Of a stretch of 64,000 nucleotides of DNA, positions 13,540-63,667 are shown one piece after another. Below the pieces are notes generated by a model. It did no database searches. It saw only the letters and a program-made list of their open reading frames with translations, and was not told the DNA's origin. A program made the translations under genes and the position numbers. Every line of letters starts with the position of its first letter. Within the stretch, counting starts at the first letter, position 1. Origin of the DNA: a virus; IMG/VR virus record IMGVR_UViG_3300043436_004382, positions 1-64,000 of that record. One strand, given 5' to 3'.

Positions 13540-13584
13540 AGTTCTAAATACTTTCGGTTATTTATTCACCGCGCCACCGGCAGA

Positions 13585-14580
13585 CTAGGCTTTGATGGAA
13601 TACTGATCGAGCCAGTATTGAATCATTTCATCCAACATTGTTTCAAACGTGTAATCATGAGACCACCCAGTAGCCCTAACCAATTTGCTTGGATCTCCCT
13701 TTAGATCATGAAGTTCTTCAGGCCTAAGAAACTTCTCATCAGTTTTGACCCAGTCTTGCCAATTCAATTCCAGTTTAGAAAAGACGTATTCGCATAGATC
13801 CCTAACCGAATGGGATACTCCAGTTGCGCAAACAAAATCTCCAGGCTTATCCAATTGTAGAATTTCCCACATTGCTCTAACGTAATCCTTGGCATGACCC
13901 CAATCTCGAGTCGCACCCAGATTACCGAGTCTAAGTTCATTAGAAAGACCTAACTTGATCTTCACGGCCTCCTTACACACCTTATTGGTAACGAAATTCG
14001 TTCCGCGTCTTGGAGACTCGTGATTGAACAGGATTCCGTTAGACACGTACATGTTATATGAATTTCTGTAATTTCTTGAAATATTATAAGAAAACACTTT
14101 TGCACAACCGTAAGGGGAAACCGGATTCATTTGAGTCGTTTCTCTTTGGTAACCGTCCTTGTCTATTGAATTACCGAACATTTCTGAAGAAGAGGCTTGA
14201 TATACTCTAGAGTCAGGCTTAATCATTCTTACGGCTTCAAGCAGATTTAGCGTGCTTAATCCAGTTGCATGGGCCGTGTATACGGGTTGATCAAAGGAAA
14301 TCCTAACATGTGATTGAGCAGCTAAGTTATAGATCTCGTCTGGCATAATCTCTTGAACAACTCTGATCAGCGACGACAGATCAGTAACATCAGCATAGTG
14401 AAGTTTAACCCTTGCATAAATATCATCGGCCAATCGGGCCGTTTGATTCTCAGAAATTGAATTTCTTTTTAATGTTCCGTGTACTTCGTATCCCTTGTCC
14501 AATAGGAATTCTGCTAAGTACGAACCGTCCTGTCCGTTTATTCCGGTGATTAGCGCTTTTTTATTTTCTTGCTGTTTCAT
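13585..14580 (-). CDS. gmd: GDP-mannose 4,6-dehydratase
   Basis: ALITGINGQDGSYLAEFLLDKGYEVHG N-terminus and overall similarity to Gmd. Confidence 0.85.
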   Translation of the reverse strand: MKQQENKKALITGINGQDGSYLAEFLLDKGYEVHGTLKRNSISENQTARLADDIYARVKLHYADVTDLSSLIRVVQEIMPDEIYNLAAQSHVRISFDQPVYTAHATGLSTLNLLEAVRMIKPDSRVYQASSSEMFGNSIDKDGYQRETTQMNPVSPYGCAKVFSYNISRNYRNSYNMYVSNGILFNHESPRRGTNFVTNKVCKEAVKIKLGLSNELRLGNLGATRDWGHAKDYVRAMWEILQLDKPGDFVCATGVSHSVRDLCEYVFSKLELNWQDWVKTDEKFLRPEELHDLKGDPSKLVRATGWSHDYTFETMLDEMIQYWLDQYSIKA

Positions 14581-15463
14581 AATTGTCTATAAACCATTTT
14601 ACTGTTTCCTTAAGGCCTTCCTCAATTGGAGTGAATTTAAAATCCGGTAGATAACTCTTTAACTTTGAATTATCTGAAGGTTTTCGGTGTTGACCGTTGG
14701 GTTTCGTTTTATCGAATCTTACTGCACCTTTAAAATTGAATGCATCCACTAGGAGCTCAACAACTTCTGCTATTGAAATTTCTTCTGATGTGCTAAGTAT
14801 CAGAGGTTCAGCCTCATCGTAATTGTCTACCGCCCATTCCGCTAGTCGAGCCACGTCCTTTGAGTATATGAATTCTCTAAGAGGCGATCCATCTCCCCAA
14901 ATAAAGAGCTCGCTATTGTTCTGTTGTGCCTGATAAATCTTGTACATCAACATTGGAATGACATGTCCATGAGTCATCGAAAAATTATCGTTCGGCCCAT
15001 AGATGTTACATGGAATTACTGAAGTGTATTTCACGCCGTACTGTTCGCGATACGCTCTGATCTGAATGTCTGACATTCTCTTTGCATAGGCATAGGGATA
15101 GTTAGATGAGTGAGGTTCGCCTAGATGAATTTTCTTTTCCGTTAATGGATACTCAATTGAGTCCGGAAAAACACAAGTGGAGAGAAATGCTACTAGATTA
15201 GTAACTCCTGCTTTACGAGCCTCCTCAATGACATTGGTGTTAATCATCAAGTTATCATAGAAGTATTCTCCCTTGTAGTTCATGTTTCCGCCAAGACCCC
15301 CGACCTTACCTGCGCAGTGTATGACATGAGTGGGTTTATGAATTTCAAAAGCTTTTGCAGTTTGAGTTGAGTTGACTAGGTCAAACTCTCTACCGATCTT
15401 AACGTCGGCCTCTATCGCTGACCCAACGAGACCGTTGCCGCCAGTTACGAGTAATTTACGCAT
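14561..15463 (-). CDS. fcl: GDP-L-fucose synthase (GDP-4-keto-6-deoxymannose 3,5-epimerase/4-reductase)
   Basis: LLVTGGNGLVGSAI Rossmann motif, YAYAK catalytic motif, adjacent to gmd. Confidence 0.8.
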   Translation of the reverse strand: MRKLLVTGGNGLVGSAIEADVKIGREFDLVNSTQTAKAFEIHKPTHVIHCAGKVGGLGGNMNYKGEYFYDNLMINTNVIEEARKAGVTNLVAFLSTCVFPDSIEYPLTEKKIHLGEPHSSNYPYAYAKRMSDIQIRAYREQYGVKYTSVIPCNIYGPNDNFSMTHGHVIPMLMYKIYQAQQNNSELFIWGDGSPLREFIYSKDVARLAEWAVDNYDEAEPLILSTSEEISIAEVVELLVDAFNFKGAVRFDKTKPNGQHRKPSDNSKLKSYLPDFKFTPIEEGLKETVKWFIDNYETARK

Positions 15464-15490
15464 AGTGAATTAAGTTTTTATATTATACTC

Positions 15491-27123: not shown

Positions 27124-27168
27124 GTAGATTCGTGTAATTTTAGGTTATTTATTTGGTGATGATTACCA

Positions 27169-27711: not shown

Positions 27712-27991
27712 CCGGTATTGCGGAATTTTTATTATTTATTCCACATCGGTTTAAAACTTGAACCTGAATTGACATTCCATCAGGATTCTTACTGACCTTG
27801 ATTGTTGCCTCTGAGAATCCTCTAACAAAGAAAAGATCCTCGATTACCTCCTGTAAATCGTCAGGATAAACTTCCGGATGTACTACGCCCGGCTGGTAAG
27901 GATCATGTTCTAATTTCTCAGCGAACTCTTGAACGAGTCTTGCCAGTTCAACGTCCTTCTGTTTTCGATTTTGTTCAGAGCCTTTAATCAT
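27692..27991 (-). CDS. Hypothetical protein
   Basis: 99-aa ORF. Confidence 0.35.
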   Translation of the reverse strand: MIKGSEQNRKQKDVELARLVQEFAEKLEHDPYQPGVVHPEVYPDDLQEVIEDLFFVRGFSEATIKVSKNPDGMSIQVQVLNRCGINNKNSAIPDETKEI

Positions 27992-28701: not shown

Positions 28702-28974
28702 TTATTTTATTTGAATTAGTGTTGAATGATTAGATTCTTTATAGAGTAATAAGCTAACCGTATCGTCTAGTGTCAGAGAATAGAGTCCAGACTTTTCAAT
28801 CGCTTCTGAAATTTTTTCTACCTTTAATCTTGAAACGTGTTTTGGCATTCTAATTTCGATCTTAGCGACTTCCCTAGGTCTTGAGCTTTCCCATTTTATA
28901 CCGAGTACGATTAAGTAAGCAGCGATCGATATGGCTACCATAAATAAAGCCGGTCCGAATATTTTTCTAATCAT
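28702..28974 (-). CDS. Small membrane protein
   Basis: N-terminal TM helix FMVAISIAAYLIVLGI. Confidence 0.4.
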   Translation of the reverse strand: MIRKIFGPALFMVAISIAAYLIVLGIKWESSRPREVAKIEIRMPKHVSRLKVEKISEAIEKSGLYSLTLDDTVSLLLYKESNHSTLIQIK

Positions 28975-30346: not shown

Positions 30347-30353
30347 AATGTTA

Positions 30354-31037
30354 TTATACTAAATCTTGAGAATTTGGTTCAATGTCTATTGTGTATGGCA
30401 TTTCATATCTGAGCTCGTATCTTAGAGTAACCATTGATGCATTGATAAAAATGGTTCCATCAATCTCTTCCTTGCCTCGAGCCTCATGAATGTGGCCAAA
30501 GACATGAACTTTAGGTTTTATCTGCTTGACCTTTTCCAATAGAGTTGGACAACCTACATGGTCACGATCGTACTCAGTAAAATCAAGTATTCCTTCAGGC
30601 GGACCGTGAGTTATCAAGACATCAATTCCTTCAGGAATCAGGTCCCAATGTGGTTTAATTTCATGTGGATATCGATTGAATGCCCAGTTATGAAAGTACG
30701 GCGTGATTGGACTACCCCAAAACTTTATGCCCTCAATCGTTGCTCCACTTTCGTTTAGATAGGTAATTCCAGGATACTCTGCAATCAAGGCCTCAACCTC
30801 CTCAGGCTTGGCCACTTCAAAAAAGAAGTCATGATTGCCTGAGATTAGGATCTTATGCGTGTAAGGAAGTTTACTGAACCAGTCAAGAAACTGTCGAATC
30901 TCGGATTCGGTGCCTCGACCGCTCACATCTCCTGCGTGCACCAAAATCGGGCCACCAGGTAGGAGATCATTCATTTCCATACGGTCTTGTGCGTCTCTCA
31001 CAAGCCAATGAGTATCTGATATAAATGTTATTTGCAT
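30354..31037 (-). CDS. Calcineurin-like metallophosphoesterase
   Basis: ISDTH, HAGDVSGRG, SGNHD, THGPP and GHIHE motifs. Confidence 0.7.
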   Translation of the reverse strand: MQITFISDTHWLVRDAQDRMEMNDLLPGGPILVHAGDVSGRGTESEIRQFLDWFSKLPYTHKILISGNHDFFFEVAKPEEVEALIAEYPGITYLNESGATIEGIKFWGSPITPYFHNWAFNRYPHEIKPHWDLIPEGIDVLITHGPPEGILDFTEYDRDHVGCPTLLEKVKQIKPKVHVFGHIHEARGKEEIDGTIFINASMVTLRYELRYEMPYTIDIEPNSQDLV

Positions 31038-32059: not shown

Positions 32060-32069
32060 GTGATTGTTT

Positions 32070-39807: not shown

Positions 39808-39837
39808 TTTTTACGACTTTTTTATTATTTATCCAAA

Positions 39838-40067: not shown

Positions 40068-40109
40068 GTCTGTTTGTTTTTTTATTTTAAAGATTGAGTT
40101 ATTATTATA

Positions 40110-40514
40110 CTACTTTTTAGCTCGGAGTTTCCCAAGAATAAATCGCTTGGCCTCAAGTTTGTCGCGGTTGCTTCGATTATTTGAACTTATCTCATAGGGA
40201 TGATTTTCATAACTCGTCCGATATTCGTGGTACTTATTCATGTCCTGTTGAAAATGAGTGTACTCATGAATGACCGTCGAACACCAACCCAATAAGGACC
40301 GGTGATACCTTGGGTTCAGAGTAATTGTATTGTTGTATTGCATGTACTGGCCAATGTACTCTAAATTAGAATCAAGCTTGATCTTTAGAGTTTTTAAATT
40401 AGCGTATTCGCTGGGCCCGTATTTTTCAATACACCAACTAAGAATTAACTTTGCACTTTTCAGATTGACGTGAGGGCTCATACTAGGATTATTTATTAGA
40501 CCTTTTAGGCCCAT
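40110..40514 (-). CDS. Small HExxH protein (putative zinc metallopeptidase, SprT/WLM-like)
   Basis: WCSTVIHEYTHFQQ motif. Confidence 0.45.
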   Translation of the reverse strand: MGLKGLINNPSMSPHVNLKSAKLILSWCIEKYGPSEYANLKTLKIKLDSNLEYIGQYMQYNNTITLNPRYHRSLLGWCSTVIHEYTHFQQDMNKYHEYRTSYENHPYEISSNNRSNRDKLEAKRFILGKLRAKK

Positions 40515-40547
40515 ACGGTTCTAATAAATAACAAGAAAATCATACTT

Positions 40548-48529: not shown

Positions 48530-48547
48530 AATGCTATTATACCAAAA

Positions 48548-49705: not shown

Positions 49706-49718
49706 CAGAATTATTTAT

Positions 49719-51918: not shown

Positions 51919-51927
51919 TTGAATTAT

Positions 51928-52137
51928 TTATCTTGTCCAGTAAACTTCACCATCCACTAGAGTCTTAACGATTGTCTCGTCCTTTGCAATAGAATTAATG
52001 TAGGTCTTTGGATTCTTTACGTTATTGTAAACTCTTTGAGTTCCATTTGAATAAACGACGGTCACCGAGTAACCACCAGGACGAAGACTTAGTTCATTGG
52101 TTCTAAATCTTTCGTGTACGATTATTGTTTTTGACAT
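51928..52137 (-). CDS. Hypothetical small protein
   Basis: 69-aa ORF. Confidence 0.3.
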   Translation of the reverse strand: MSKTIIVHERFRTNELSLRPGGYSVTVVYSNGTQRVYNNVKNPKTYINSIAKDETIVKTLVDGEVYWTR

Positions 52138-52941: not shown

Positions 52942-52980
52942 ACTGGCTTATTATACTAAATTGAGAGTAAAAGGTTAGGA

Positions 52981-54147: not shown

Positions 54148-54199
54148 CTATTACGTAATTTATTTCAGGTTTATTTATTCTAGTAGAATTCTTCAAGAA

Positions 54200-54745
54200 T
54201 TATCGAAGTCCAGTCCTGGATAACTGTTTTCTTAATTTGGTCTTGGCATCATGCACGTTTGATTTAACTGCACCTGCCGTTGTACCCATGTGAACTGCTG
54301 CCTGCTCGTACGATAGGTCCTCATAGACAACAAGTTTAAATGCCAATTGCTGTCGAGTTGGAAGTTGATTTACGATTTCCCTAATCAGGTTCAAAGCCGG
54401 TCGATCCGCATGAACGTCTTGGGTTTCAATGTCAATGCCTTCAATATCCGAGAATGCTTTAGTTTTCGTTTTGAACTGTCTGATCCAATTAACCGTTTCA
54501 TTACGCACGATCCTTGCCAACCATGCAGCAAAAGGGCCGGTGCCGCTCCACTTATCAAGATTCATGAAAGCTTTAGTCAGCCCTTGAGCTACTGCTTGAT
54601 CAAGGTCGTCTTGATCCTTTAAGTATCGAGCAGCGTTTTGGTAAGCAAGAGGTTTCCACTGATCCCACAGATCTGTGAGAGCTCGACGATTTCCAGTTCG
54701 GGCCGCATCGACCAATGAGTCGGTGTGGCGTAAGTTTAAGTCCAT
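54200..54745 (-). CDS. Sigma-70/ECF-family RNA polymerase sigma factor
   Basis: Region 2 (..FAAWLARIVRNETVNWIR..) and region 4 HTH (QQLAFKLVVYEDLSYEQAAVHMGTTAGAVKSNVHDAKTKLRKQL). Confidence 0.65.
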   Translation of the reverse strand: MDLNLRHTDSLVDAARTGNRRALTDLWDQWKPLAYQNAARYLKDQDDLDQAVAQGLTKAFMNLDKWSGTGPFAAWLARIVRNETVNWIRQFKTKTKAFSDIEGIDIETQDVHADRPALNLIREIVNQLPTRQQLAFKLVVYEDLSYEQAAVHMGTTAGAVKSNVHDAKTKLRKQLSRTGLR

Positions 54746-54771
54746 AGGTAGACTTATTATACTAAAAAAGG

Positions 54772-55596
54772 TTAGGACGTTTTAATGATATCGGCTAGAG
54801 TCTTGGCACGATCTCCTACCTGCTTTGCCCAAGTTGACCTCAGCATTTCTTCAGAGGCAGCATCAAAGTTTTTCTGTTTGATATGGGTTAGGAAATTAGT
54901 AAACTCCGAGAGACCTCTTTTACCTAAATTGAAAACCATTTCAGTTAAGACTCCCTGGACTTGAGTTGGTAGGTTTGGCATGTTCGGGACTAATTCCTGT
55001 GCATTAACTTTAGCCTGCTTAAGATCAGTAAAGAGCAGAGCAGTTATCTGTTCTTGAGTCAATGGGGATTTACCAGCCTTAACCTTTTCCGGATTAGCTC
55101 CTACCTTTTTTAACTGAGCAGTCGCATCTTCACGATTAAGATTAAAACCTACTCCTACCGTTGGGATCTTTCTGGAATCCAGATACTTAAAAGGTTTTGA
55201 GCCTTCATGTTTTATAACTCGATTCTTGATCGAAGCAATAACCGGATCGGTTGGGGGAGGTGGTGCTTTAAATGAGTTGAGGTATTGTTCTGCTCTAATG
55301 TTCTTGATGTGGGTCATTATTTGATTCTTGTAGTCAGAATCCATAATTCCAAGCTCGCCGTTGATTGCATCTCCAACGCTTGGATACTCCCATGATTTCT
55401 GTGGATCCTCGTGACCTGCCTTCAAGGCCTTATTGATCTTGACTAATGAATATGCATCTGGAATTGATTTGATGGCGGCAGCCAAAGCCTCCTCGTCTGT
55501 ACCCATTCCAGCGGTTGATGTCTGAATTTGTGCAGCGATTTGGTCTGCAGTTAAGGCCTCGTTTATCCAGCTCTCAAATAGTTTTACATGCTTCAT
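54772..55596 (-). CDS. Capsid-targeting-like N-terminus fused to a T4-lysozyme-like (GH24) muramidase
   Basis: N-terminus MKHVKLFESWINEAL. C-terminal half aligns to T4 e lysozyme (IKHEG..; MVFNLGKRGLSEFTNFLTHIKQKNFDAASEEM..WAKQVGDRAKTLADII). Confidence 0.7.
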   Translation of the reverse strand: MKHVKLFESWINEALTADQIAAQIQTSTAGMGTDEEALAAAIKSIPDAYSLVKINKALKAGHEDPQKSWEYPSVGDAINGELGIMDSDYKNQIMTHIKNIRAEQYLNSFKAPPPPTDPVIASIKNRVIKHEGSKPFKYLDSRKIPTVGVGFNLNREDATAQLKKVGANPEKVKAGKSPLTQEQITALLFTDLKQAKVNAQELVPNMPNLPTQVQGVLTEMVFNLGKRGLSEFTNFLTHIKQKNFDAASEEMLRSTWAKQVGDRAKTLADIIKTS

Positions 55597-55642
55597 TTAG
55601 AGTTACTAATTATTTACCTAGTTATTTATTTGCCGGATCCCA

Positions 55643-55698: not shown

Positions 55699-56304
55699 TT
55701 AGAAATTTTGAAGTTGGTTTTGGCCTATTTTGTAATCTCTATTTGCAAAACTTTTGAATCGACGATGAAGTAGTCTTCTAATCGTTGATAATCTGGTCGT
55801 AATTGTCGAAACTGATAATCCAATCTCTTTAGAGATTTCCTTGAGAGCTAGTTCATTAACATGATGCAATTCAAAGATTCGAGCATAGGTCGGTCCTAAT
55901 TTGTGGAGGACTAATCTCTTTGCGACCTCGTGCAGCCGGTGCGGGTTCAACACAATTTCTTTAGGCTCAACACTTTCTTCGAGTCTACCGGACGGCACAT
56001 AGTCGTCATCTGCCCAATCCGGAATTAATTGACTTTCCAAAACGACCGGTGTTTCCAACCTCTTTTTTACGGCCTCACACCATCCCCAATAGCAAGTCTT
56101 CATCAAGTAATTTACCATGTGAACCTCATTCTCAAATTCAAGTTCTCGATTCTTGGCTGAAACTGCGCTACGAATTGCGCAGAACTGGGCATGCTCAAGA
56201 TCGTCTTCATGGCTAACGAATCCACCCCATCTCTTTATCGAGACCATTACAAATCCTCGACCCTGCCCAAAGAATTTGACTATTATCTCATCGGTTATTT
56301 TCAT
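55699..56304 (-). CDS. Second sigma-factor-like protein (sigma-70 region-4 HTH at the C-terminus)
   Basis: ..LALKEISKEIGLSVSTITTRLSTIRRLL.. region-4-like HTH; 201 aa. Confidence 0.5.
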   Translation of the reverse strand: MKITDEIIVKFFGQGRGFVMVSIKRWGGFVSHEDDLEHAQFCAIRSAVSAKNRELEFENEVHMVNYLMKTCYWGWCEAVKKRLETPVVLESQLIPDWADDDYVPSGRLEESVEPKEIVLNPHRLHEVAKRLVLHKLGPTYARIFELHHVNELALKEISKEIGLSVSTITTRLSTIRRLLHRRFKSFANRDYKIGQNQLQNF

Positions 56305-56478: not shown

Positions 56479-56868
56479 TTAGTAAAGGTCATTGAGCAAA
56501 ATGTACTCGAACCAACCAATATCGTCAATTCCGCTAGAATCATACATCCAGGTTTTAACCTGTTCAAGTTCTTGAGAATCGTCATCAGACTCAGAGTCTA
56601 TGTGCTTTTCGAACAGTTCTTGGAACTTAGATTTTAGAGTATCGATTGCAGCATTTACTTCCGGATCAGAACTCCATTCGTCAACTAAAGTTGTGTAACG
56701 TTCTTTAAACGGGGCAGAGTAATTAGTTAAACCCAGATCTCTAAGACGGTCCTTTTCGCCTTTATCGAGGTCTTGATCTTCGTTTATGAATTGATCAAAT
56801 GCTTTTAAATTTTTCATGAATGATCTTTTATTTTTTGCCTGTTTTTTGGGTGCCGAATTGGGCTGCAA
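56479..56868 (-). CDS. Acidic hypothetical protein
   Basis: 129-aa ORF. Confidence 0.4.
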   Translation of the reverse strand: MQPNSAPKKQAKNKRSFMKNLKAFDQFINEDQDLDKGEKDRLRDLGLTNYSAPFKERYTTLVDEWSSDPEVNAAIDTLKSKFQELFEKHIDSESDDDSQELEQVKTWMYDSSGIDDIGWFEYILLNDLY

Positions 56869-57454
56869 CTATCTTTGAGAGTTCAATGTCTTGATCTGTT
56901 GCTCGATTGATTGCATCCTTCTCCATTCTTCTCATGAAGTCCGGAAACTGGGCTCCAACCTTGAGCACGCATTCGGTCCAAGGTTTTGGATCGTACTCTC
57001 GCTTTTTGGTGTAGTACTCACGAGCAATCTCGCCAGAGGTATCATCGTCCAGGTAGACGGTGTCTGCTCCAAGCTTGAAACTTGCTTCAACTGTTGGGTA
57101 ATCCTCCATTGAAATGGACCATTGGCATGAGGTTTCATTCTCAAGCTCGGCCCAACACTTCACGCTCTCATTGGTCTCTTCGAACTCAACCAGCTTTTTT
57201 ACTTTACCTGTGAGCCAGTCCTTAAATGTTTTGGGTTCCTCAGGCGCTGGTGCTTCAGGTGTCGTTTCAGTAGTGTCCTCTTCGGGCTCGGTTTCAGCGG
57301 GTTCTTGCACCTTAACTGGCTCCTCTTCAGGCTCGGCTGCAGGTTCAGGCTTGGGCTTCTTCTCCTGCTTTTTGAAAGGCACGGGCTTGTGAGCTTGGTC
57401 CGCTGCGCGTTCCATGTCCTCAAAGAAGTTTTCGTATAGTTTAATGTATTTCAA
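56828..57454 (-). CDS. Hypothetical protein with a capsid-targeting-like N-terminus (MKYIKLYENFFED) and a Pro/Glu-rich linker
   Basis: PEPAAEPEEEPVKVQEPAETEPEED low-complexity linker; motif family member. Confidence 0.5.
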   Translation of the reverse strand: MKYIKLYENFFEDMERAADQAHKPVPFKKQEKKPKPEPAAEPEEEPVKVQEPAETEPEEDTTETTPEAPAPEEPKTFKDWLTGKVKKLVEFEETNESVKCWAELENETSCQWSISMEDYPTVEASFKLGADTVYLDDDTSGEIAREYYTKKREYDPKPWTECVLKVGAQFPDFMRRMEKDAINRATDQDIELSKIVAAQFGTQKTGKK

Positions 57455-57493
57455 AGTAGAATTATTTATTTAACCGGTTATTACGCTTGGCAT

Positions 57494-57997
57494 TTACTTG
57501 GACCTCATGGTTTTTTGGATTTGAGCCTTGAGCTGCTTAAGCTTGGGTAGGGTCTCATCGATCACCTGTACAGGTTCGGGCTCTGGGGCTCTGGAATAGG
57601 CCAGTTCACCTTCACCGGCACCAGATCCCTGATCGGGTCTAGACTTCATCATTTGTTCTTGACGACGAACTGCAGGCTTGACACTGCACTGGGCCTCCTC
57701 GATCATGCCATTGACAATGTTCATGATCTCTTGCTGTTTTTGAATTAGGTTTGCCGTGCACTCGCTCTGGCCGCTAATGAGATCACGATTGAGTTTCTCG
57801 ACCTGGGCCGAGAGCTCCATGATCTGAGTCTGTTGGCTCTTGACCCTGATCTCAAGCTCGGAACAGTCGGTCGTGTGGCGATCGATTAGGCTTGGACCCA
57901 GACTAATAAGCACTATCGTGAATACAAGTATGAGCAGGGCCGTGATTCGCTGGGCTGGCGTGAAGCTCTTAAGAATGTCTGAAATGTTGTTGAACAT
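57494..57997 (-). CDS. Membrane-anchored coiled-coil protein
   Basis: N-terminal TM helix ITALLILVFTIVLISL followed by coiled coil. Confidence 0.4.
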   Translation of the reverse strand: MFNNISDILKSFTPAQRITALLILVFTIVLISLGPSLIDRHTTDCSELEIRVKSQQTQIMELSAQVEKLNRDLISGQSECTANLIQKQQEIMNIVNGMIEEAQCSVKPAVRRQEQMMKSRPDQGSGAGEGELAYSRAPEPEPVQVIDETLPKLKQLKAQIQKTMRSK

Positions 57998-58090
57998 AGG
58001 GATTCCAGTTTATTGTTATTTATCGCCCGATCTACTGGCACAAAAAAAGCCCCAAATATTGGAGCTTTGATTGCTTGCGTTTTTTATTAT

Positions 58091-58666
58091 TTAACCGACT
58101 CTTTCAAGTTCCTCAATACCACTAAATACTCTACCGTTGCCAACAATATTGGTTTCTATCCAATTGTGAACCTCATCCTGGTTATCAGTTGTGGTTACGA
58201 TCGTGAACCTAATAAAGTTTCTCTGATCATAATTCATTGAGTCAAAACCTTGATCCTCTATCGCCTGCTTCACAAGGTCTATAAGCTCACCGAGCCTTTC
58301 CTTAGTATCAACATCAAGCCCAAGTTCATCAATTAAGTCTAGTAACTCAGGTTTTCTCATTTGGTCAATCTCATCTTCGGTTGGAATCTCATCATCTCGT
58401 GATACGTAATCCTCCTCGGTCCATTCATCGATATCAACTGAGTCCTCCTTTACCTGAAAATCGGAGCTAACTGAATTAATTTCAGGTAACCACTCAATCA
58501 ATTTGCTCTTGATGTATTCCGGTTCACTCTGACAAGCTTGATCGAACTCAATCTCGAGCTCAACATCCCAATCAATAAGTAATCCAAGTTCCCTTAGTCG
58601 GCCTTCTTCGTCTCCAGTAAGACTCTCGTTCACGAATTGATTAAAGTTTTTAACTAATTTTTGCAT
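58091..58666 (-). CDS. Acidic hypothetical protein with a capsid-targeting-like N-terminus (MQKLVKNFNQFVNESL)
   Basis: 191 aa; motif family member. Confidence 0.55.
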   Translation of the reverse strand: MQKLVKNFNQFVNESLTGDEEGRLRELGLLIDWDVELEIEFDQACQSEPEYIKSKLIEWLPEINSVSSDFQVKEDSVDIDEWTEEDYVSRDDEIPTEDEIDQMRKPELLDLIDELGLDVDTKERLGELIDLVKQAIEDQGFDSMNYDQRNFIRFTIVTTTDNQDEVHNWIETNIVGNGRVFSGIEELERVG

Positions 58667-58690: not shown

Positions 58691-59215
58691 TTATTTATTA
58701 GACTCAAGGTCCCGTCTAAGCATGAAGTAGCCTAGATAGTCTTGGTCCTCCCATTCAACCGCTCTAGTCCCGTTCCCGTCCTCAAAGAGCACCACCCTAA
58801 CCTCGTCCCCGTATTCCGGCGACTCAAGAAAGATCTCTTTAAGCTGTCGTGAACTCTCAGGTCGACGATACTCGTCGGTGTCCGGATCATAGGTTATTAT
58901 ACCAGGAAAGCGACGGCAGAATTCACGAACGCTCGGCTCGGTCAGGTGGGTGAGAGCCAGCAGGTTAAAGACCTCAACCACAGAGTCCAGCGGTAAGCTG
59001 TCAAGCAGTTGTTGCTGATTAGCAAGGCCAAGTTCATGGAGTCTGGCAACATCCGGCGGTGGCTCAATGCCAAGCATTTTACAGGTCTCAATCGCGGCCT
59101 CTGAGTACATCTCAAGGCGGTCTTCCGCCTCGGCAAAATGGTCCGGATTGAGCACGTCCTGTAGAGTTGCAAGTTCTGAATTATTGAATTCTTCGAATAT
59201 CTTAAGGTATTTCAT
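58691..59215 (-). CDS. Hypothetical protein with a capsid-targeting-like N-terminus (start moved to the internal MKYLKIFEEF)
   Basis: The ORF-track start at 59254 would overlap the upstream gene. The internal Met restores the family motif. Paralog of 59227..59703 (shared ..LHELGL..). Confidence 0.5.
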   Translation of the reverse strand: MKYLKIFEEFNNSELATLQDVLNPDHFAEAEDRLEMYSEAAIETCKMLGIEPPPDVARLHELGLANQQQLLDSLPLDSVVEVFNLLALTHLTEPSVREFCRRFPGIITYDPDTDEYRRPESSRQLKEIFLESPEYGDEVRVVLFEDGNGTRAVEWEDQDYLGYFMLRRDLESNK

Positions 59216-59226
59216 TTGAGTTTTTT

Positions 59227-59703
59227 TTATAATGCTGAGCCCAACATGAACCACATCTTAACATAGAAGCTCTCCCATTGGACCGCAGTATTACCAGCTG
59301 AGTCCTTCCACACGATCACATCTACTGGATCTCCAGGATCGATGTCAGCTTCCGGATCAATCTCCTTGTCGGGAATCGCTTTGCGGCTGGCGATAAGCTC
59401 ATCGTAATCAAGCGTGAAGAGTCCCGGAAACTTCTGAACCAGGGCTCTGAGCCTTGGGCCATCAGCGTGTGTGAGCTCATTAATATTGAACACCAGCGTG
59501 ACTCTATCGAACAGTTCGTACTCGTCAATGAGGCCAATCTCCCGAAGTCGTTGTTCATCTGGATCAAGTTTAAGATCAAGAGCATTGACCGTTTCAAGTG
59601 CGGCCCTTTCAAAATCTTCGAACTCGTCAGGGTTATTCTCGACCACGTCCCTTAGGGTCGGTAGATCAGAGGCAAGTTCCTCGAATAGTTTAATATACTT
59701 CAT
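59227..59703 (-). CDS. Hypothetical protein with a capsid-targeting-like N-terminus (MKYIKLFEEL)
   Basis: 158 aa; motif family member. Confidence 0.55.
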   Translation of the reverse strand: MKYIKLFEELASDLPTLRDVVENNPDEFEDFERAALETVNALDLKLDPDEQRLREIGLIDEYELFDRVTLVFNINELTHADGPRLRALVQKFPGLFTLDYDELIASRKAIPDKEIDPEADIDPGDPVDVIVWKDSAGNTAVQWESFYVKMWFMLGSAL

Positions 59704-59716
59704 GGGATTATTTATA

Positions 59717-60544
59717 TTACAGGTAGTTACTTGAGCCGGCTAGTCGATCTTCCCAATAGCGCAGGATCTCCTCGTTCGATGTGCCTTCAGGAAAATCAGA
59801 GCGCATTGGAAGATTCATGGGTTCCTTACTATCCTGACCGAATCTTGGGTTTTTCACGGTCACATTGGTTACAACAATAGGGTCTGGACCCAGTCTGTCT
59901 TTTGCACCGAATTCGGGACTAGGGCCAATGCGGGTGATAATAATCTTGGTGCCGTCCTTGGTATGAAGAGTCTCCATGGACTGGGAGCGGTGAATGTTGG
60001 TGCTCTTGGTCTCAGCAGGCAGAGGCAACTTAACCAGATACTCCTTTTGGCTCCAGGCCATGTATCTAAAGCTTACGTCTGGATCATCGCTCCACTCGCC
60101 TTCTTCTTCAGCCTTTGCCTGCTCCGGAGAGACCTTGGCAAGACCCAACCAGCTGGCTGCCCATTCAATGGAGAGTAGAATATTCGGACGAACCTTTTCT
60201 ATTGGTATCGACAATAGGGTGTGTTCACCGAACCTGGCTGCAACATCCCGATCAGAAGAAAAGGAGGTTATTCGATCATGTATGGTGTAGTTATCTGAAT
60301 CCGGTTCCCAGTCCTGGTGCAGCCCACGCCAAAGAGTCTTCACTCTCTTGGAGTCTAGTTGCCTAAGGCTCTCTTCGCGGATGAAAGGATTGTTCTCGAT
60401 CAGTCTAATCAGTTCATCGGCATCCGATTCGGTAAACCTAAGACTCTCTTCATTGCCCATGACCCAACTCTCAATAAGCCTCATTAGCTTGGGCTTTAGT
60501 AGGTCCCTACTTTCAAAAAGTTGCTTAGATATGATGTACTTCAT
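59717..60544 (-). CDS. Hypothetical protein, motif-family-like N-terminus (MKYIISKQLFES)
   Basis: 275-aa ORF. Confidence 0.5.
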   Translation of the reverse strand: MKYIISKQLFESRDLLKPKLMRLIESWVMGNEESLRFTESDADELIRLIENNPFIREESLRQLDSKRVKTLWRGLHQDWEPDSDNYTIHDRITSFSSDRDVAARFGEHTLLSIPIEKVRPNILLSIEWAASWLGLAKVSPEQAKAEEEGEWSDDPDVSFRYMAWSQKEYLVKLPLPAETKSTNIHRSQSMETLHTKDGTKIIITRIGPSPEFGAKDRLGPDPIVVTNVTVKNPRFGQDSKEPMNLPMRSDFPEGTSNEEILRYWEDRLAGSSNYL

Positions 60545-60556
60545 AAAGTTATTTAT

Positions 60557-60607: not shown

Positions 60608-61087
60608 TTATTCTTGAATTGGGTTATCGCCAACATAGTCTTTGATTAGCTTGGCAGTCTCGGTCTCGCAATAGCTTTTCCATTGGGCATTCAGCCGAAT
60701 CGGCAGTCTAAAACTCGATCCACGTGGGCCAATCAATTCCAGACCGTTGGCCTTTACGAAATCCATTGCCCGGTCCATCGCATCAAGGCTAAAGTTCTCA
60801 AATTCAGCCGGGCTCAATTTCAATAGAGGTTCAAACTTAAGCAGACCGTCGGTGTCTCGGTCTATTATCATCTTGTGTAGAGTCTTGGTTCCGGATTGAG
60901 TGTATGAGTCGGGCTCATTTTCGTATCGTGTCCTGATCCTGTCCAGATTGGCCAGCCCAATTCGAAGGGCTCGTTGGGTTAGGCTGGTTCCAACCGATCG
61001 AACGGTTGGCAGTATCGTGCAGCGGACTGGTCTGGTCTCATCATCAGAGTCATGCATGAGATTCTCAAATAGTTTAAGGTATTTCAT
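60608..61087 (-). CDS. Hypothetical protein with a capsid-targeting-like N-terminus (MKYLKLFENL)
   Basis: 159 aa; motif family member. Confidence 0.55.
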   Translation of the reverse strand: MKYLKLFENLMHDSDDETRPVRCTILPTVRSVGTSLTQRALRIGLANLDRIRTRYENEPDSYTQSGTKTLHKMIIDRDTDGLLKFEPLLKLSPAEFENFSLDAMDRAMDFVKANGLELIGPRGSSFRLPIRLNAQWKSYCETETAKLIKDYVGDNPIQE

Positions 61088-61114
61088 GAGTTAGTCTTTT
61101 TTAGTTAGAGTTAT

Positions 61115-61300
61115 TTATTCTCCAACCGCCCGTTCAAAGACGATGAAGTAACCGCCCCTAAAGAACTGGCTTGAACCTGTGGAAACGTGCTGTGCGGTAA
61201 CTGACACAATCTGCCAACCCTCGGTAAGTAGGGCATCCACCTTGGCCTGCACCTCATGCGAGCCCTGATCACCGGTCACGAGTACTTTTTGTTCTTTCAT
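61115..61300 (-). CDS. Hypothetical small protein
   Basis: 61-aa ORF. Confidence 0.3.
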   Translation of the reverse strand: MKEQKVLVTGDQGSHEVQAKVDALLTEGWQIVSVTAQHVSTGSSQFFRGGYFIVFERAVGE

Positions 61301-61319
61301 GTTGTTCTATTTGTATTAG

Positions 61320-61396
61320 AGGTCAGGACAGGATTCGAACCTGTAATATAGTGCATCCAGTAGATGCTTGCGTCTGACCAATTCCGCCACCTGACT
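61320..61396 (-). ncRNA. tRNA-like element 1 (class II Leu-like D-arm, canonical T-arm, aberrant anticodon/variable region)
   Basis: AGTCAGG-TG-GCGGAATTGGTCAGACGC..AGCAT-CTACTGG-ATGCA..ACAGGTTCGAATCCTGT-CCTGACC. The 1-72 pair is mismatched and position 34 would be A. Confidence 0.4.
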
Positions 61397-61477
61397 ATGT
61401 AGTGGAGCGTCATCCATTTCTGGATTATCCACTTCTGTTACGTTATCTCACGATAAGAGGCTTTACAGAGCACCATG

Positions 61478-61558
61478 TAGTCAGGACAGGATTCGAACCT
61501 GTATAATTTCATCTCTACTCTATGAGTCGGAATTACTGTAACCGCCCAGCGCCTGACT
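61478..61558 (-). ncRNA. tRNA-like element 2 (same acceptor and T-arm as element 1, different non-canonical body)
   Basis: AGTCAGG-CG-CTGGGCGGTTACAG...CTCATAGAG...ACAGGTTCGAATCCTGT-CCTGACT-A; no canonical D or anticodon arm. Confidence 0.35.
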
Positions 61559-61573
61559 ATAGAGTCTATTATA

Positions 61574-61603
61574 CAAAAAAAAGGGGCTCAATGGCCCCTT
61601 ATT
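61574..61603 (-). terminator. Rho-independent terminator
   Basis: AAGGGGCCATTGAGCCCCTT plus TTTTTTTT on the minus strand. Confidence 0.55.
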
Positions 61604-61621
61604 AAACTTGAATAGTAATGT

Positions 61622-62071
61622 TTAGTTTTCGTCGCTGATCCAGGTCGCAAGCTTTAGTGCAACTCGTCTGGCAAGCTTCTCCATTGAGTAGTCGCCAGGA
61701 TTAGCGGTCACGGTTATTGAGTCTTGGTTCGTTGACCCATCGCCCTTGGTAATGAATACGTCAGCAACATCGCCAGCCGGTGAAAAGTCATCCTCTTCTT
61801 CCTGGCCCTTGTAGTAGTTATCAGTTGCGGGCTCAATGAAGTAGTAGTTCTCAGGATCTTCTGGACTCTCAACATAGATGATGTAGCCGCCTTCGACGTC
61901 GCTAGATTTTTGAAGAGATGTATTCCATTCAGGTAGTAGCTTATCAACTTCCATTTTAATGGCGGTCATTAGGTTGGACTCAGTCGTTGTTCTAAACGAA
62001 GCCATGCGATCGCCCTCTTGAATTTCGTTCTCATTAACGAATTGAGTAAATCCTTTAATTAATTTTTTCAT
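61622..62071 (-). CDS. Hypothetical protein with a capsid-targeting-like N-terminus (MKKLIKGFTQFVNENE)
   Basis: 149 aa; motif family member. Confidence 0.55.
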   Translation of the reverse strand: MKKLIKGFTQFVNENEIQEGDRMASFRTTTESNLMTAIKMEVDKLLPEWNTSLQKSSDVEGGYIIYVESPEDPENYYFIEPATDNYYKGQEEEDDFSPAGDVADVFITKGDGSTNQDSITVTANPGDYSMEKLARRVALKLATWISDEN

Positions 62072-62104
62072 TATCTGTATTTTTTTTTTTGTAAGATTAT
62101 TTAT

Positions 62105-62470
62105 CTAGGTCAAGTCAATCTCTTCTCCCGATTCATTGTCTATTAATACAGAACAACCTGCACGCCTTGCAATCTCTTGTGCTCTATCCCATAGTGCTTG
62201 ATTGACCGCCTCATGATCTTCATCCGAATCAGAGTCGAGTACCGATGGATCCAGTACATTGGCTAATGAGTCAAGGCTAATTAGCACGTTTTTACCCGGC
62301 AGGTTGCTGAACTCAAGCCTAAGCATGTCGTCGTTACTGTTACCCGAATAGGCAGTTGCAACCGTCTGAAATCCCATTGTTCCAAGTTCTCTAGCAATGG
62401 AATTAGAGTCTTCATGGTCCATGTGGTTTTCATTTACGAACTGTTGAAATCCTTTAATTAATTTTTGCAT
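62105..62470 (-). CDS. Hypothetical protein with a capsid-targeting-like N-terminus (MQKLIKGFQQFVNENH)
   Basis: 121 aa. The upstream region (TTTTTTGTAAGATTATTTATCTAG) is identical to that of 61622..62071, so the two are tandem paralogs. Confidence 0.55.
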   Translation of the reverse strand: MQKLIKGFQQFVNENHMDHEDSNSIARELGTMGFQTVATAYSGNSNDDMLRLEFSNLPGKNVLISLDSLANVLDPSVLDSDSDEDHEAVNQALWDRAQEIARRAGCSVLIDNESGEEIDLT

Positions 62471-63019
62471 TATCTGTATTTCTTTTTTGTAAGATTATTT
62501 ATCTAGGGGACCGTGGACCTCTTCTCATCCCAAAACACCGAGGCGCGCCCTACACAGTAAAGTAAAGAGATTACTCTAGCTACTAAACCTACCCAGTCTA
62601 GTAAACCGACCAAGTCTACCTATACTATAAAAAAGATTATTATAGAAGCCAACACTACAGCCAGCCCTATAGGCCAAACCCAATCAAAGCTTATCTCTCT
62701 TCTTTTCATATAGGCTAGTATACCCAATCTCGCTCAAGCCAGGACCCGGACCGGGACCCCAGGAGACCACCTGACCGGGGCCGACCCTGGCCAACCGCGG
62801 CCCTACCCGGGACTAGGGAGTAGACCCCTCAGCCACGCCCAAGAGGTACCTACTGTGCGGACCTGGGGACTACGGAGTACGGCGAGCCCCCGCCCCGGCC
62901 CCGGAACGGGCCACCCTGGGTCGCGAGGGGCCCACGACTCGGGACATATACGGACACCGCGGGACACCGAGGCCGGGGTTGTCCCAAGAGTCCACGGACC
63001 CGGCCGGATAAATAACCTC

Positions 63020-63667
63020 ATGGAGAATACAGACAATACCGCAGACCCTCGCGAGACCCGGACCTTTCCGACCGGCGAGCTCGTGTACAAGAAGGAGGCC
63101 GCGAAGTTCTTGGGAGTTTCCCTAAAGACTGTGGACCGCTATGTAGCCGACGGCAGGCTGCAGAACTGGAAGAATCAGGTCAATGGCCGGACCTACTATG
63201 ACAAGCAGGACCTACTTAAGTTACTAGGGAGTAGGCTGCCCCAGTCCCGAGAGGTATGGGTTTATACCCGATCCGCTCCAATCGAGGGAAACCACACGTT
63301 GGGTAAAGGGGCCAAGGCTAGACTCGCAGCCCAGACCGAGCGGGTCCTGAAGTACTGTGCGGCGGCCGGGGTCCGGGTGGACCGAGTAATTGAAGACGTG
63401 GGCAAGGCTGGCTCTCTCGCCGGCAGGTCTGGCCTGGACAAGATCATGGACGGGGTACTGCGCAAGCAGGTCTCAATGATTGTCGTCGAGACCCCTGACC
63501 GGATCGCGCGCTTTGCTGGCCAAGAGATCATAGAGAGATTCCTGACCTGGCACGGTGTCGAACTGCATGTAGTTAGTAAGCACTTAACAACTGAAGAGAT
63601 GCGGGAAGAGTTAAAGTCGGATCTAGCTGATCTCATCCTGGAGTCCCGTCGCTTGATTGGGGATTAG
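63020..63667 (+). CDS. Serine recombinase with an N-terminal MerR-type HTH (IS607-family TnpA-like resolvase/invertase)
   Basis: HTH LVYKKEAAKFLGVSLKTVDRYVADGRL. Catalytic domain VWVYTRSAPIEG..LAGRSGLDKIMDGVLRKQVSMIVVETPDRIARF matches the GxSGxxRPGLxxxLxxxxxGDxLVVxxLDRLxR pattern. The ATG at 63020 is preferred over the ORF-track 62855 because GGATAAATAACCTC precedes it. Confidence 0.65.
   Translation: MENTDNTADPRETRTFPTGELVYKKEAAKFLGVSLKTVDRYVADGRLQNWKNQVNGRTYYDKQDLLKLLGSRLPQSREVWVYTRSAPIEGNHTLGKGAKARLAAQTERVLKYCAAAGVRVDRVIEDVGKAGSLAGRSGLDKIMDGVLRKQVSMIVVETPDRIARFAGQEIIERFLTWHGVELHVVSKHLTTEEMREELKSDLADLILESRRLIGD

What the first reader, a model, noticed from the sequence alone, without database searches (positions are those of the whole stretch)
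13560..63022. Conserved AATAAATAAC element 3-10 nt upstream of many start codons, including the GC-rich recombinase gene
Read on the coding strand, (G/A)ATAAATAA(C/T) precedes the ATG at 13561, 19326, 27150, 40489, 49706, 54168, 55603, 57463, 58007, 58682, 59707 (TATAAATAAT), 60548, 61108, 62092 and 62482, and on the plus strand at 63008 before the recombinase. It resembles the T4 late-promoter -10 box TATAAATA, and the phage encodes two sigma factors. However it sits almost on the start codon, often directly after a terminator hairpin. That implies leaderless or very short-leader late transcripts, or an SD-independent translation-initiation enhancer of the Bacteroidetes type. Its presence before the recombinase gene suggests the GC-rich island is integrated into the phage expression programme.
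Basis: seen in the sequence. Interest (0 to 1): 0.6.

Follow-up and report, generated by a model that had tools for sequence, protein, structure and literature searches.

The report
Phage late-type promoter abutting start codons
The repeated ATAAATAA box is real and is most likely the promoter an uncultured jumbo phage of Bacteroidota uses for late genes; it resembles the phage T4 late promoter, but often sits so close to the start codon that the mRNA would have almost no leader.

Summary
RATAAATAAY occurs 18 times against 1.4 expected. The exact 8-mer ATAAATAA occurs 25 times, 24 on the strand of the neighbouring gene, and 20 have a gene start 4-30 nt downstream (P~2e-30).

It behaves like a promoter, not a ribosome signal:
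- All eight bases are fixed, and nothing is conserved at -35.
- The distance to the ATG varies, but the fifth base after the box is a purine in 25/25 sites.
- With that purine as +1 the box spans -12 to -5, overlapping the T4 late TATAAATA box (-13 to -6).

Across about 110 distinct sites in related IMG/VR contigs, spacing is bimodal. That implies 5' UTRs of 0-3 nt or 13-21 nt.

An unbiased scan found a second motif, TTTRGTATAATA, before a different set of genes.

ATAAATAA precedes lysis genes, fibre-like proteins and many proteins whose N-termini resemble the T4 capsid-targeting peptide. This fits late expression.

The window encodes two ECF-type sigma factors. No T4 gp55-type late sigma factor was found, so the recogniser is unknown.

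The host is probably a Bacteroidota member.

T4-like late motifs are already reported in cyanophages and Rak2-like jumbo phages. This is a new variant of a known kind, of moderate interest. No transcript data exist.

The parts
62495..62502 (-). class B box ATAAATAA; 24 nt to ATG of 62105-62470
62097..62104 (-). class B box; 25 nt to ATG of 61622-62071; abuts TAG stop of the upstream gene
61111..61118 (-). class B box; 23 nt to ATG of 60608-61087
60549..60556 (-). class B box; 4 nt to ATG of 59717-60544 (leaderless geometry); directly after a hairpin plus T-run
59708..59715 (-). class B box (TATAAATAAT); 4 nt to ATG of 59227-59703 (leaderless geometry)
58691..58698 (-). class B box; 24 nt to ATG of 58091-58666
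58016..58023 (-). class B box; 18 nt to ATG of 57494-57997 (weak spanin-like hit); terminator 58068-58046 upstream
57462..57469 (-). class B box; 6 nt to the TTG start of 56828-57454 (TTG also present in relatives)
55622..55629 (-). class B box; 25 nt to ATG of lysozyme-domain gene 54772-55596; terminator 55676-55652 upstream
54171..54178 (-). class B box (AATAAATAAA); 23 nt to ATG of 52981-54147
51924..51931 (-). class B box; 5 nt to ATG of 50536-51918; contains the TAA stop of the upstream gene
49711..49718 (-). class B box; 5 nt to ATG of 48548-49705; abuts the TAG stop of 49719-50543
40489..40496 (-). class B box; 7 nt to ATG of 40110-40481; back-to-back with the + strand box at 40524
40524..40531 (+). 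class B box; 16 nt to ATG of endolysin 40548-41375 (+)
39825..39832 (-). class B box; 17 nt to ATG of 37885-39807 (cohesin plus T9SS sorting domain); hairpin upstream
27732..27739 (-). class B box inside the 3' end of 27692-27991; 20 nt to ATG of 27169-27711
27145..27152 (-). class B box; 21 nt to ATG of 26560-27123
26030..26037 (-). class B box 5 nt after class A box 26043-26050; followed by about 200 nt without a convincing ORF, a terminator, then the tRNA array
19537..19544 (-). class B box inside a tRNA-like spacer; no ORF downstream
19330..19337 (-). class B box; 17 nt to ATG of 18176-19312 (weak virion-protein hit); terminator upstream
13558..13565 (-). class B box; 18 nt to ATG of 12679-13539 (PA14/GLEYA, fibre-like N-terminus)
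11476..11483 (-). class B box overlapping the stop of 11480-11737; only a small ORF about 70 nt downstream
1708..1715 (-). class B box plus ATGAAGCATTGA: remnant of a gene that is intact in relatives L061 and L063
63008..63015 (+). class B box in 60% GC DNA; 4 nt to ATG 63020 of the serine recombinase (leaderless geometry)
28940..28947 (+). the only ATAAATAA not associated with a gene start (antisense inside 28702-28974); probably a chance occurrence
63020..63667 (+). MerR-HTH plus serine recombinase (transposase/invertase-like) gene; true start is probably ATG 63020, not GTG 62855
54200..54745 (-). ECF-type sigma factor (regions 2 and 4), preceded by class A box 54755-54762
55699..56304 (-). 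divergent sigma-like protein (only region 4 detected); no class A or B box upstream
54755..54762 (-). class A box GTATAATA; 9 nt to ATG of the sigma gene
52949..52956 (-). class A box; 7 nt to ATG of 52339-52941
48535..48542 (-). class A box; 5 nt to ATG of 48071-48529
40103..40110 (-). class A box; 35 nt to ATG of 39894-40067
30352..30359 (-). class A box; 5 nt to ATG of 30116-30346
26043..26050 (-). class A box in tandem with class B box 26030-26037
22220..22227 (-). class A box; 16 nt to ATG of 21808-22203
21791..21798 (-). class A box; 39 nt to ATG of 20126-21751
15481..15488 (-). class A box; 17 nt to ATG of 14561-15463
5789..5796 (-). class A box upstream of tRNA-Leu 5597-5681 (no ORF downstream)
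5233..5240 (-). class A box; 5 nt to ATG of 4490-5227
61567..61574 (-). class A box after terminator 61600-61581, upstream of a tRNA-like stretch and tRNA 61319-61396
58895..58902 (-). GTATAATA inside ORF 58691-59254; function doubtful

Best explanation
DATAAATAA is the -10-type (only) element of a phage-specific promoter class of the T4 late-promoter kind. It belongs to an uncultured jumbo phage of about 270 kb whose host is probably a member of the Bacteroidota.

Proposed mechanism:
1. Host RNA polymerase core carries a phage-encoded specificity factor. Its identity is unknown: a gp55-like protein encoded outside the window, or one of the phage's ECF-type sigmas.
2. The enzyme melts the box without needing a -35 contact.
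3. It starts at the conserved purine, the fifth base after the 8-mer. The box therefore spans -12 to -5.

Genes driven this way are late-type: lysis enzymes, fibre-like proteins and a large set of proteins with T4-like capsid-targeting N-termini. Resident mobile genes such as the recombinase are also included.

Because the box is packed against the coding sequence, about 40% of these transcripts would start 0-3 nt before the AUG and so be leaderless. The rest would carry a short A-rich leader of 13-21 nt.

A second box, TTTRGTATAATA, plays the same role for a different, earlier-looking gene set.

Shown: enrichment, strand and position specificity, the fixed purine, the absent -35, conservation in relatives, and the gene-class association. 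Inferred: that it is a promoter, the position of +1, late timing, and leaderless translation.
For: Enrichment and position:
- 18 matches against 1.43 expected.
- 24 of 25 boxes lie on the strand of the adjacent gene; 20 of 25 have a gene start 4-30 nt downstream (P = 2e-30).

Sequence constraints:
- All 8 positions are constrained. One-mismatch variants are rarely at gene starts.
- There is no information upstream of -1 in 22 window sites or 112 family sites. Pyrimidines follow the box, then a purine at +5 in 25/25 window sites (22/22 when sites whose purine is the A of the ATG are excluded) and 108/112 family sites.

Spacing:
- Distance to the ATG varies. In 103 family sites it is bimodal: 4-7 nt in 44, 17-25 nt in 55, and 8-16 nt in only 3.
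- The same gene families switch between the two modes.

Context:
- The box follows intrinsic terminators at 55652, 58046, 19360, 39850 and 60570. A new start is needed at those places.
- It occurs before non-coding DNA at 26037 and 19544.
- It is conserved at orthologous sites while the flanks diverge, and it is strand-specific in 27 related loci.

Geometry against known promoters:
- Register and architecture match T4 late promoters: an 8-bp box one helical turn upstream of +1, no -35, and an A(-13) variant in common use (PMC2988020).
- The 4-nt gap to +1 equals that of the host phylum's -7 element (PMC6847099).

Gene classes:
- Endolysin, lysozyme, fibre-like proteins.
- Capsid-targeting-like N-termini occur in 43/103 class B genes and 0/56 class A genes; odds ratio 9.4, p = 1.4e-4 within the window.

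Precedent: T4-like late motifs are reported in cyanophages (NATAAATA, PMC2984593) and in jumbo phages CBB and GAP32 (ATAAATA, PMC5259590).
Against: - There are no transcript 5' ends for this uncultured phage, so +1 and timing are inferred.
- No gp55 homologue is in the window. The rest of the genome could not be read.
- The two sigma genes are ECF-type, which normally need a -35 element. They are not conserved at the syntenic position in relatives that keep the motif.
- The stretch between box and +1 is pyrimidine/C-rich, not AT-rich as in T4.
- No canonical head or tail genes lie in the window or in the 10 kb walked to its left. The 'late' label therefore rests on lysis genes and on the capsid-targeting resemblance.
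- One presumed leaderless case would start with UUG (57454).
- Several sites are paralogous duplicates.
Confidence: 0.75

Rival explanations
1. An RNA-level processing signal. AUAAAUAA would be recognised in polycistronic transcripts by a phage or host endoribonuclease, which cuts a few bases downstream. This would create the short or absent leaders without new initiation.
For: Like a promoter, such a site would be strand-specific, lie just upstream of genes, need no -35 and have a fixed cut position. The window is rich in RNA-repair and RNA-processing genes: two RNA ligases, a CCA-adding enzyme, a cyclic-phosphate receiver domain and a Ro-like protein.
Against: Several boxes sit directly after strong intrinsic terminators, where little read-through RNA would exist. 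The sister motif contains a perfect TATAAT. The box matches the T4 late promoter in sequence and register (PMC2988020). A purine preceded by pyrimidines is typical of initiation sites.
Confidence: 0.08
2. The box is the binding site of a phage transcription regulator (late activator or early repressor) that overlaps a weak, unrecognised promoter. It would not be the -10 element itself.
For: The box is an exact 8-9 bp sequence with little tolerance for mismatches. That is stricter than most -10 elements. No cognate sigma was identified.
Against: There is no dyad symmetry and no second conserved block that could serve as the real promoter. The fixed 4-nt distance to a conserved purine matches -10/-7 geometry (PMC6847099, PMC2988020).
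Confidence: 0.07
3. A Shine-Dalgarno-independent translation-initiation enhancer of the Bacteroidetes type: an A-rich element that recruits ribosomal protein bS1 or the ribosome.
For: The host phylum lacks Shine-Dalgarno sequences and uses upstream adenines (PMC6847099). No Shine-Dalgarno sequences are visible upstream of the genes here. The motif is A-rich.
Against: Known enhancer positions are fixed relative to the AUG (-3, -6, -11 to -14). This box lies anywhere from 4 to 25 nt away, in a bimodal pattern. Invariant T's and an 8/8 exact match are not expected of an A-tract. It occurs before non-coding DNA. In the 4-nt cases it could not be part of a ribosome-bound leader if transcription starts downstream of it.
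Confidence: 0.05
4. A cassette-boundary or recombination sequence, spread by duplication and exchange of gene modules, with no expression role of its own.
For: Alignment breakpoints between relatives fall exactly at the box. Many downstream genes are paralogues sharing N-termini. A promoter plus three codons survives as a deletion scar at 1715.
Against: The box also precedes many unrelated genes: endolysin, recombinase, methyltransferase, fibre-like proteins. The conserved purine and strict orientation relative to genes need an expression-related explanation. Short conserved promoters are known substrates for, rather than products of, modular exchange in T4-type phages (from memory; not checked here).
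Confidence: 0.03

Closest known systems
Bacteriophage T4 late promoters (TATAAATA; gp55 with gp33 and the gp45 clamp)
   Same: An 8-bp A/T box one helical turn upstream of +1. No -35 element. The ATAAATA core sits in the same register (-12 to -6). The A(-13) variant AATAAATA is used in T4 too (PMC2988020). Here the box precedes lysis and virion-type genes and mobile-element genes.
   Different: Position -13 is degenerate (A/G/T). An extra invariant A follows at -5. The segment down to +1 is pyrimidine-rich rather than AT-rich. The box is often fused to the start codon. No gp55, gp33 or gp45 was found in the 64 kb available. The host is probably a Bacteroidota member.
Predicted late promoters of T4-like cyanophages (NATAAATA) and Rak2-like jumbo phages CBB and GAP32 (ATAAATA)
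   Same: The same core found by motif search upstream of structural or late genes in large myoviruses. CBB also carries both a sigma-70-like factor and a gp55-like factor (PMC2984593, PMC5259590).
   Different: Those reports do not describe placement on the start codon or a bimodal leader length. Their hosts use Shine-Dalgarno sequences.
Bacteroidota housekeeping promoters (-33 TTTG / -7 TAnnTTTG)
   Same: A 4-5 nt gap between the 8-bp proximal element and +1 (PMC6847099). The proximal element dominates.
   Different: The sequence is different. No TTTG...TAnnTTTG promoter occurs on the coding strand of the window. Host transcripts are 87% leadered by more than 10 nt, 33 nt on average (PMC6847099).
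Extended -10 promoters without -35 (for the companion GTATAATA class)
   Same: A perfect TATAAT with conserved bases just upstream (TTTRG) and no -35.
   Different: G is at -13 rather than TG at -15/-14 in most copies. A Bacteroidota primary sigma is not expected to use TATAAT, so a phage factor is probably needed.
Leaderless mRNAs of bacteria and phages (for example lambda cI)
   Same: The predicted +1 coincides with, or lies 1-3 nt before, the A of AUG at about 40% of class B and about 60% of class A sites.
   Different: The arrangement is used on a genome-wide scale by a phage in a phylum where leaderless mRNAs are a minority. It is unverified experimentally.

Membership tests
T4-type late promoter system | 8-bp TATAAATA-like box centred near -10 (-13 to -6) | tested here: met
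   DATAAATA+A with an invariant purine 5 nt after the 8-mer. The ATAAATA core falls at -12 to -6 (PMC2988020).
T4-type late promoter system | No conserved -35 element | tested here: met
   Information content is about 0 from -40 to -2 in 22 window sites and 112 family sites.
T4-type late promoter system | Precedes late (virion, lysis) genes | tested here: inconclusive
   The box precedes an endolysin, a lysozyme, fibre-like proteins and proteins with capsid-targeting-like N-termini. No capsid, portal or tail genes lie in the sequence that could be read.
T4-type late promoter system | gp55-type minimal sigma encoded by the phage | tested here: inconclusive
   None was found among the window ORFs of at least 120 aa scanned with Pfam or PHROGs.
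T4-type late promoter system | gp33 co-activator and gp45 sliding clamp | not tested
   No replication module lies in the window, and the full contigs cannot be fetched with these tools.
T4-type late promoter system | AT-rich segment between box and +1 | tested here: not met
   The four positions after the box are C/T-rich, with C the commonest base at three of them.
Bacteroidetes SD-independent translation enhancer (upstream adenines) | Fixed position relative to the start codon (-3, -6, -11 to -14) | tested here: not met
   Spacing is 4-25 nt and bimodal, while the distance to the purine is fixed (PMC6847099).
ECF sigma-dependent promoter | Bipartite -35 (GGAAC-like) and -10 (CGT-like) elements | tested here: not met
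   There is no -35 block and the box is A/T only. The defining consensus is from general knowledge.
Bacteroidota primary-sigma promoter | TAnnTTTG at -7, with or without TTTG at -33 | tested here: not met
   No TTTG-N17-21-TAnnTTTG occurs on the coding strand.
Leaderless mRNA | Transcription start at or within a few nt of the AUG | not testable with these tools
   The geometry fits: spacer 4-7 nt in 44 of 103 family sites. Confirmation needs mapping of 5' ends.

The most novel reading that the evidence does not exclude
The box and the N-terminal peptide that follows it (MK..K.FE.FI.E, close to the T4 capsid-targeting sequence MKTYQEFIAE with its I-x-E protease site) form one portable cassette for late expression and capsid delivery. 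The cassette would let this jumbo-phage family express dozens of unrelated proteins late and package them for injection; candidates include a lysozyme and an Acb1-like phosphodiesterase. It would also serve as the junction at which such genes are swapped between relatives. In this reading, leaderless initiation is the phage's main way of translating in a host that lacks Shine-Dalgarno sequences.
Probability: 0.3. Interest if true: 0.7.

Novelty: new variant of a known kind. Interest (0 to 1): 0.45.

Why it matters
If correct, this gives a ready-made transcription map for an uncultured family of about 270-kb freshwater phages of Bacteroidota. There would be two promoter classes that sort genes into temporal groups, readable from sequence alone.

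It extends the T4 late-promoter logic (a -10-only box with no -35) to a phylum whose own promoters and ribosome-binding rules differ from the textbook.

It predicts unusually frequent leaderless mRNAs there. This can be tested in Flavobacterium reporter systems and in lake metatranscriptomes.

The link to capsid-targeting-like N-termini points to a large, exchangeable set of packaged proteins.

It is not a new principle. Similar motifs have been predicted in cyanophages and Rak2-like jumbo phages.

Tried and rejected
- Megablast of 20 kb of the window against GenBank phages found nothing.
- The nearest records by topoisomerase are unannotated 634-642 kb megaphages at 56% amino-acid identity. 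They and the IMG/VR relatives at 50-58% identity (27-32% GC) do not share the motifs. Their enriched upstream 7-mer is ATATATA.
- Annotated Bacteroidota phages that share genes were checked: Cellulophaga phi17:2 and Tenacibaculum pT24. They show no strand-specific ATAAATAA enrichment in the parts read, so they could not serve as annotated proxies.
- I walked 10 kb beyond the left end of the window in related contigs to look for head or tail genes or gp55. Only small unknown genes turned up, several with the same two boxes.
- A phiKZ-type phage RNA polymerase was considered for the three large unannotated ORFs at 32-40 kb. It was rejected: there is no DFDGD-type motif, and the proteins have signal peptides, lectin or cohesin domains and T9SS sorting domains.
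- A full sigma-70-type promoter scan found 46 sites against 39.9 expected, so there is no enrichment.
- The host-type TTTG/TAnnTTTG pattern is absent on the coding strand.
- AACCTTTT looked like a possible upstream element of class A, but its spacing is not fixed.
- Rfam found only tRNAs.
- Short inverted repeats around the recombinase's upstream region might be recombination sites, but they are too short to interpret.
- An exact-match look-up of the sigma factor found only short metagenome contigs.

Full report
WHAT THE WINDOW IS

Nearly all genes lie on the - strand. The window carries these features:
- Split topoisomerase II subunits, two RNA ligases (one of the T4 gp63 type) and a helicase.
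- A CCA-adding enzyme, a ClpP-like protease and lysis enzymes.
- 23 tRNA genes.

The topoisomerase large subunit is 56% identical to unannotated 634-642 kb megaphages. It is 78-99% identical to 27 IMG/VR contigs, several of 270-271 kb. The window therefore comes from an uncultured jumbo-phage family of about 270 kb.

The host is probably a member of the Bacteroidota:
- One gene carries a type IX secretion sorting domain.
- Other genes have their closest isolate homologues in Maribacter, Cellulophaga, Tenacibaculum and Prevotella phages.
- One sigma factor resembles those of crAss-like phages.
- No Shine-Dalgarno sequences are visible upstream of the start codons.

THE OBSERVATION

RATAAATAAY occurs 18 times against 1.43 expected. 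The exact 8-mer ATAAATAA occurs 22 times on the coding strand and 3 times on the other strand. Two of those three precede the + strand endolysin and recombinase genes.

Twenty of 25 boxes have a gene start 4-30 nt downstream, against a background probability of 0.019 (P = 2e-30). All eight positions matter. Single-mismatch variants are mostly not at gene starts (11 of 75). ATAAATA is never followed by anything but A on the coding strand.

The description '3-10 nt upstream' fits only about a third of the sites. A terminator hairpin precedes about five of them.

ANATOMY

Aligning the sites shows no information upstream of position -1, which is A, G or T and almost never C. So there is no -35 or UP-like block.

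Downstream come three to four mostly pyrimidine positions and then a purine. That purine is present in 25/25 window sites (A in 21). It holds in 22/22 when sites where it is the A of the ATG are left out, and in 108/112 non-identical sites of the family.

The distance from box to ATG, by contrast, varies. In 103 family sites it is sharply bimodal:
- 4-7 nt in 44 sites.
- 17-25 nt in 55 sites.
- 8-16 nt in only 3 sites.

Members of one gene family can sit in either mode. For example, MK.L.KGF.QF.NE proteins occur with spacers of 4, 23 and 25 nt.

A conserved purine after pyrimidines at a fixed distance from an A/T box is what a transcription start looks like. With that purine as +1 the box spans -12 to -5.

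T4 late promoters are an 8-bp TATA box (-13 to -6) without a -35 element, and AATAAATA is their commonest variant (PMC2988020). The 4-nt gap also equals the gap between the -7 element and the start site in Flavobacterium johnsoniae (PMC6847099).

The predicted 5' UTRs are therefore 0-3 nt or 13-21 nt. Intermediate lengths, which would suit neither leaderless initiation nor a filled mRNA channel, are depleted. That last explanation is my inference.

A SECOND CLASS

An unbiased 8-mer scan ranked GTATAATA alongside ATAAATAA: 13 copies on the coding strand and none on the other. Its logo is TTT(A/G)GTATAATA(A/G), again without a -35. It is mostly 4-9 nt from the ATG.

It precedes a different gene set:
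- One sigma factor.
- A Ro-like RNA-binding protein and an epimerase.
- Small membrane proteins.
- tRNA genes.

At 26030-26050 the two boxes stand in tandem before a non-coding stretch.

Neither host-type promoters (TTTG...TAnnTTTG) nor full sigma-70 promoters are enriched.

WHAT THE ATAAATAA GENES ARE

They fall into these groups:
- The endolysin (40548), a lysozyme-domain protein (54772) and a weak spanin-like protein (57494).
- Two proteins with fibre-like N-termini (12679, 18176).
- A secreted cohesin/T9SS protein.
- A methyltransferase-containing protein.
- The recombinase.
- In relatives, GIY-YIG-like endonucleases.

Strikingly, about half of the class B genes encode proteins that begin MK(Y/H/L)(I/L)K.F(E).F(I/V).E. 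Relatives even have MKYIKLFESFIAE.

The T4 capsid-targeting sequence is MKTYQEFIAE (PMC8442874), and the T4 prohead protease cuts after L/I-x-E (PMC9026906). Such N-termini occur in 43/103 class B genes and 0/56 class A genes in the family. Within the window the association has an odds ratio of 9.4 (p = 1.4e-4).

If these are packaged proteins, they must be made with the head, that is, late. This is inference from resemblance. No virion data exist.

CONSERVATION

In the 27 related loci both boxes are strand-specific. Orthologous sites keep the box while the flanks change. Alignment breakpoints between relatives often fall exactly at the box.

At 1715 the window keeps the box and three codons of a gene that is intact in relatives.

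The recombinase gene lies in a 60% GC island. It has the box 4 nt from ATG 63020. A relative with 86% identical protein has the same GGATAAATAACCTAATG in the same GC-rich setting.

More distant relatives (27-32% GC) lack both boxes. They show ATATATA upstream of genes instead.

WHO READS THE BOX

The window encodes a clear ECF-type sigma (54200-54745, regions 2 and 4, SigW-like) and a divergent second one (55699-56304, only region 4 detected).

ECF sigmas normally need a -35 element. These two genes also sit in a hypervariable stretch. The 90%-identity relatives that keep both boxes have a different ECF sigma nearby and none at the syntenic position.

No gp55-like gene is in the window. About 200 kb of the genome could not be read, and a 10-kb walk to the left found nothing relevant. 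Jumbo phage CBB combines an ATAAATA late motif with a gp55-like factor and a separate sigma-70-like factor (PMC5259590), so a gp55-type reader elsewhere in this genome is plausible. This step remains open.

RIVALS

- Translation enhancer. This fails the fixed-distance test and cannot explain boxes before non-coding DNA.
- RNA-processing site. This would mimic many features. It is disfavoured by boxes placed right after strong terminators, by the TATAAT content of the sister motif, and by the T4 register.
- Regulator-binding site, or a pure recombination junction. Neither explains the conserved purine and the orientation.

COMPARISON AND VERDICT

The box works like a T4 late promoter. It probably belongs to that broad kind, which has already been predicted in cyanophages (NATAAATA, PMC2984593) and Rak2-like jumbo phages (PMC5259590). 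Membership in the gp55/gp33/gp45 system is not shown.

Four things are new here:
- The probable Bacteroidota host.
- The stricter 9-bp consensus with a pyrimidine-rich spacer.
- The systematic fusion to start codons, which predicts many leaderless mRNAs in a phylum where 87% of host leaders exceed 10 nt (PMC6847099).
- The coupling to capsid-targeting-like N-termini.

Interest is moderate. The finding is a solid and useful regulatory map, with one testable surprise: the leaderless and bimodal leader lengths.

Noticed in passing
window 5233-61574, - strand (13 sites, e.g. 54755-54762, 48535-48542, 30352-30359): A second strand-specific promoter-like motif, TTT(A/G)GTATAATA(A/G). It has 13 copies on the coding strand and none on the other, no -35, and lies mostly 4-9 nt from the ATG. 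It precedes a different gene set (sigma factor, tRNAs, metabolic genes).
   Followed up: yes
window, about 15 genes, e.g. 48548-49705, 54772-55596, 26560-27123, 27169-27711, 58091-58666, 61622-62071, 62105-62470, 659-1231, 102-644; also L015 540-6848: N-termini of the form MK..K.F(E).F(I/V).E. They closely resemble the T4 capsid-targeting sequence MKTYQEFIAE and its I-x-E protease site. They are linked to ATAAATAA promoters (43/103 against 0/56). This suggests a large, variable set of packaged proteins.
   Followed up: partly
window 49718, 51931, 54178, 55629, 57469 compared with L003-L029: Alignment breakpoints between related phages fall exactly at the promoter box. The boxes therefore mark junctions of gene-module exchange.
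   Followed up: partly
window 1695-1715 (-): Promoter box followed by ATGAAGCATTGA. This is the scar of a gene that is intact (MKHLMNFSQFLTEG...) in relatives L061 and L063.
   Followed up: yes
window 19730-19802 (-) and 61319-61396 (-): A tRNA with anticodon UCA (would read UGA) and a tRNA-Ser with the unusual anticodon ACU. ORFs nevertheless look intact under the standard code.
   Followed up: no
window 19313-20125, 22559-25165, 61397-61621 (-): Long spacers in and near the tRNA array contain T-loop-like GGTTCGAATCC segments that neither ARAGORN nor Rfam calls. They may be interrupted or degenerate tRNAs, or other small RNAs.
   Followed up: no
window 62469-63037: Divergent class B promoters flank a non-coding segment of about 470 bp and 60% GC upstream of the recombinase. 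Short inverted repeats lie at 62507-62518/62990-63001 and 62469-62480/63026-63037. They may be recombinase sites or chance.
   Followed up: partly
window 31562-39807 (-): A run of genes for secreted or surface-type proteins with signal peptides. One carries a T9SS C-terminal sorting domain and one has a long Ser/Gly-rich low-complexity region. This is unusual cargo for a phage and a pointer to a Bacteroidota host.
   Followed up: partly
window 28007-28696 and 43281-43832 (-): Candidate anti-defence genes: a Tad6-like Thoeris inhibitor, and a weak 2H-phosphoesterase/Acb1-like protein that also has a capsid-targeting-like N-terminus (MIKSFTQFIAG).
   Followed up: no
L015 12-416 and 2980-3402: In the 271-kb relatives the region holds a different ECF sigma and an SmpB-like gene in place of the window's sigma at 54200. 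Sigma genes here are hypervariable.
   Followed up: partly
L001, L002, L030-L035: More distant relatives, including the 634-642 kb megaphages, lack both motifs. They show ATATATA enriched within 35 nt upstream of ORFs, so promoter specificity seems to have changed between clades.
   Followed up: partly
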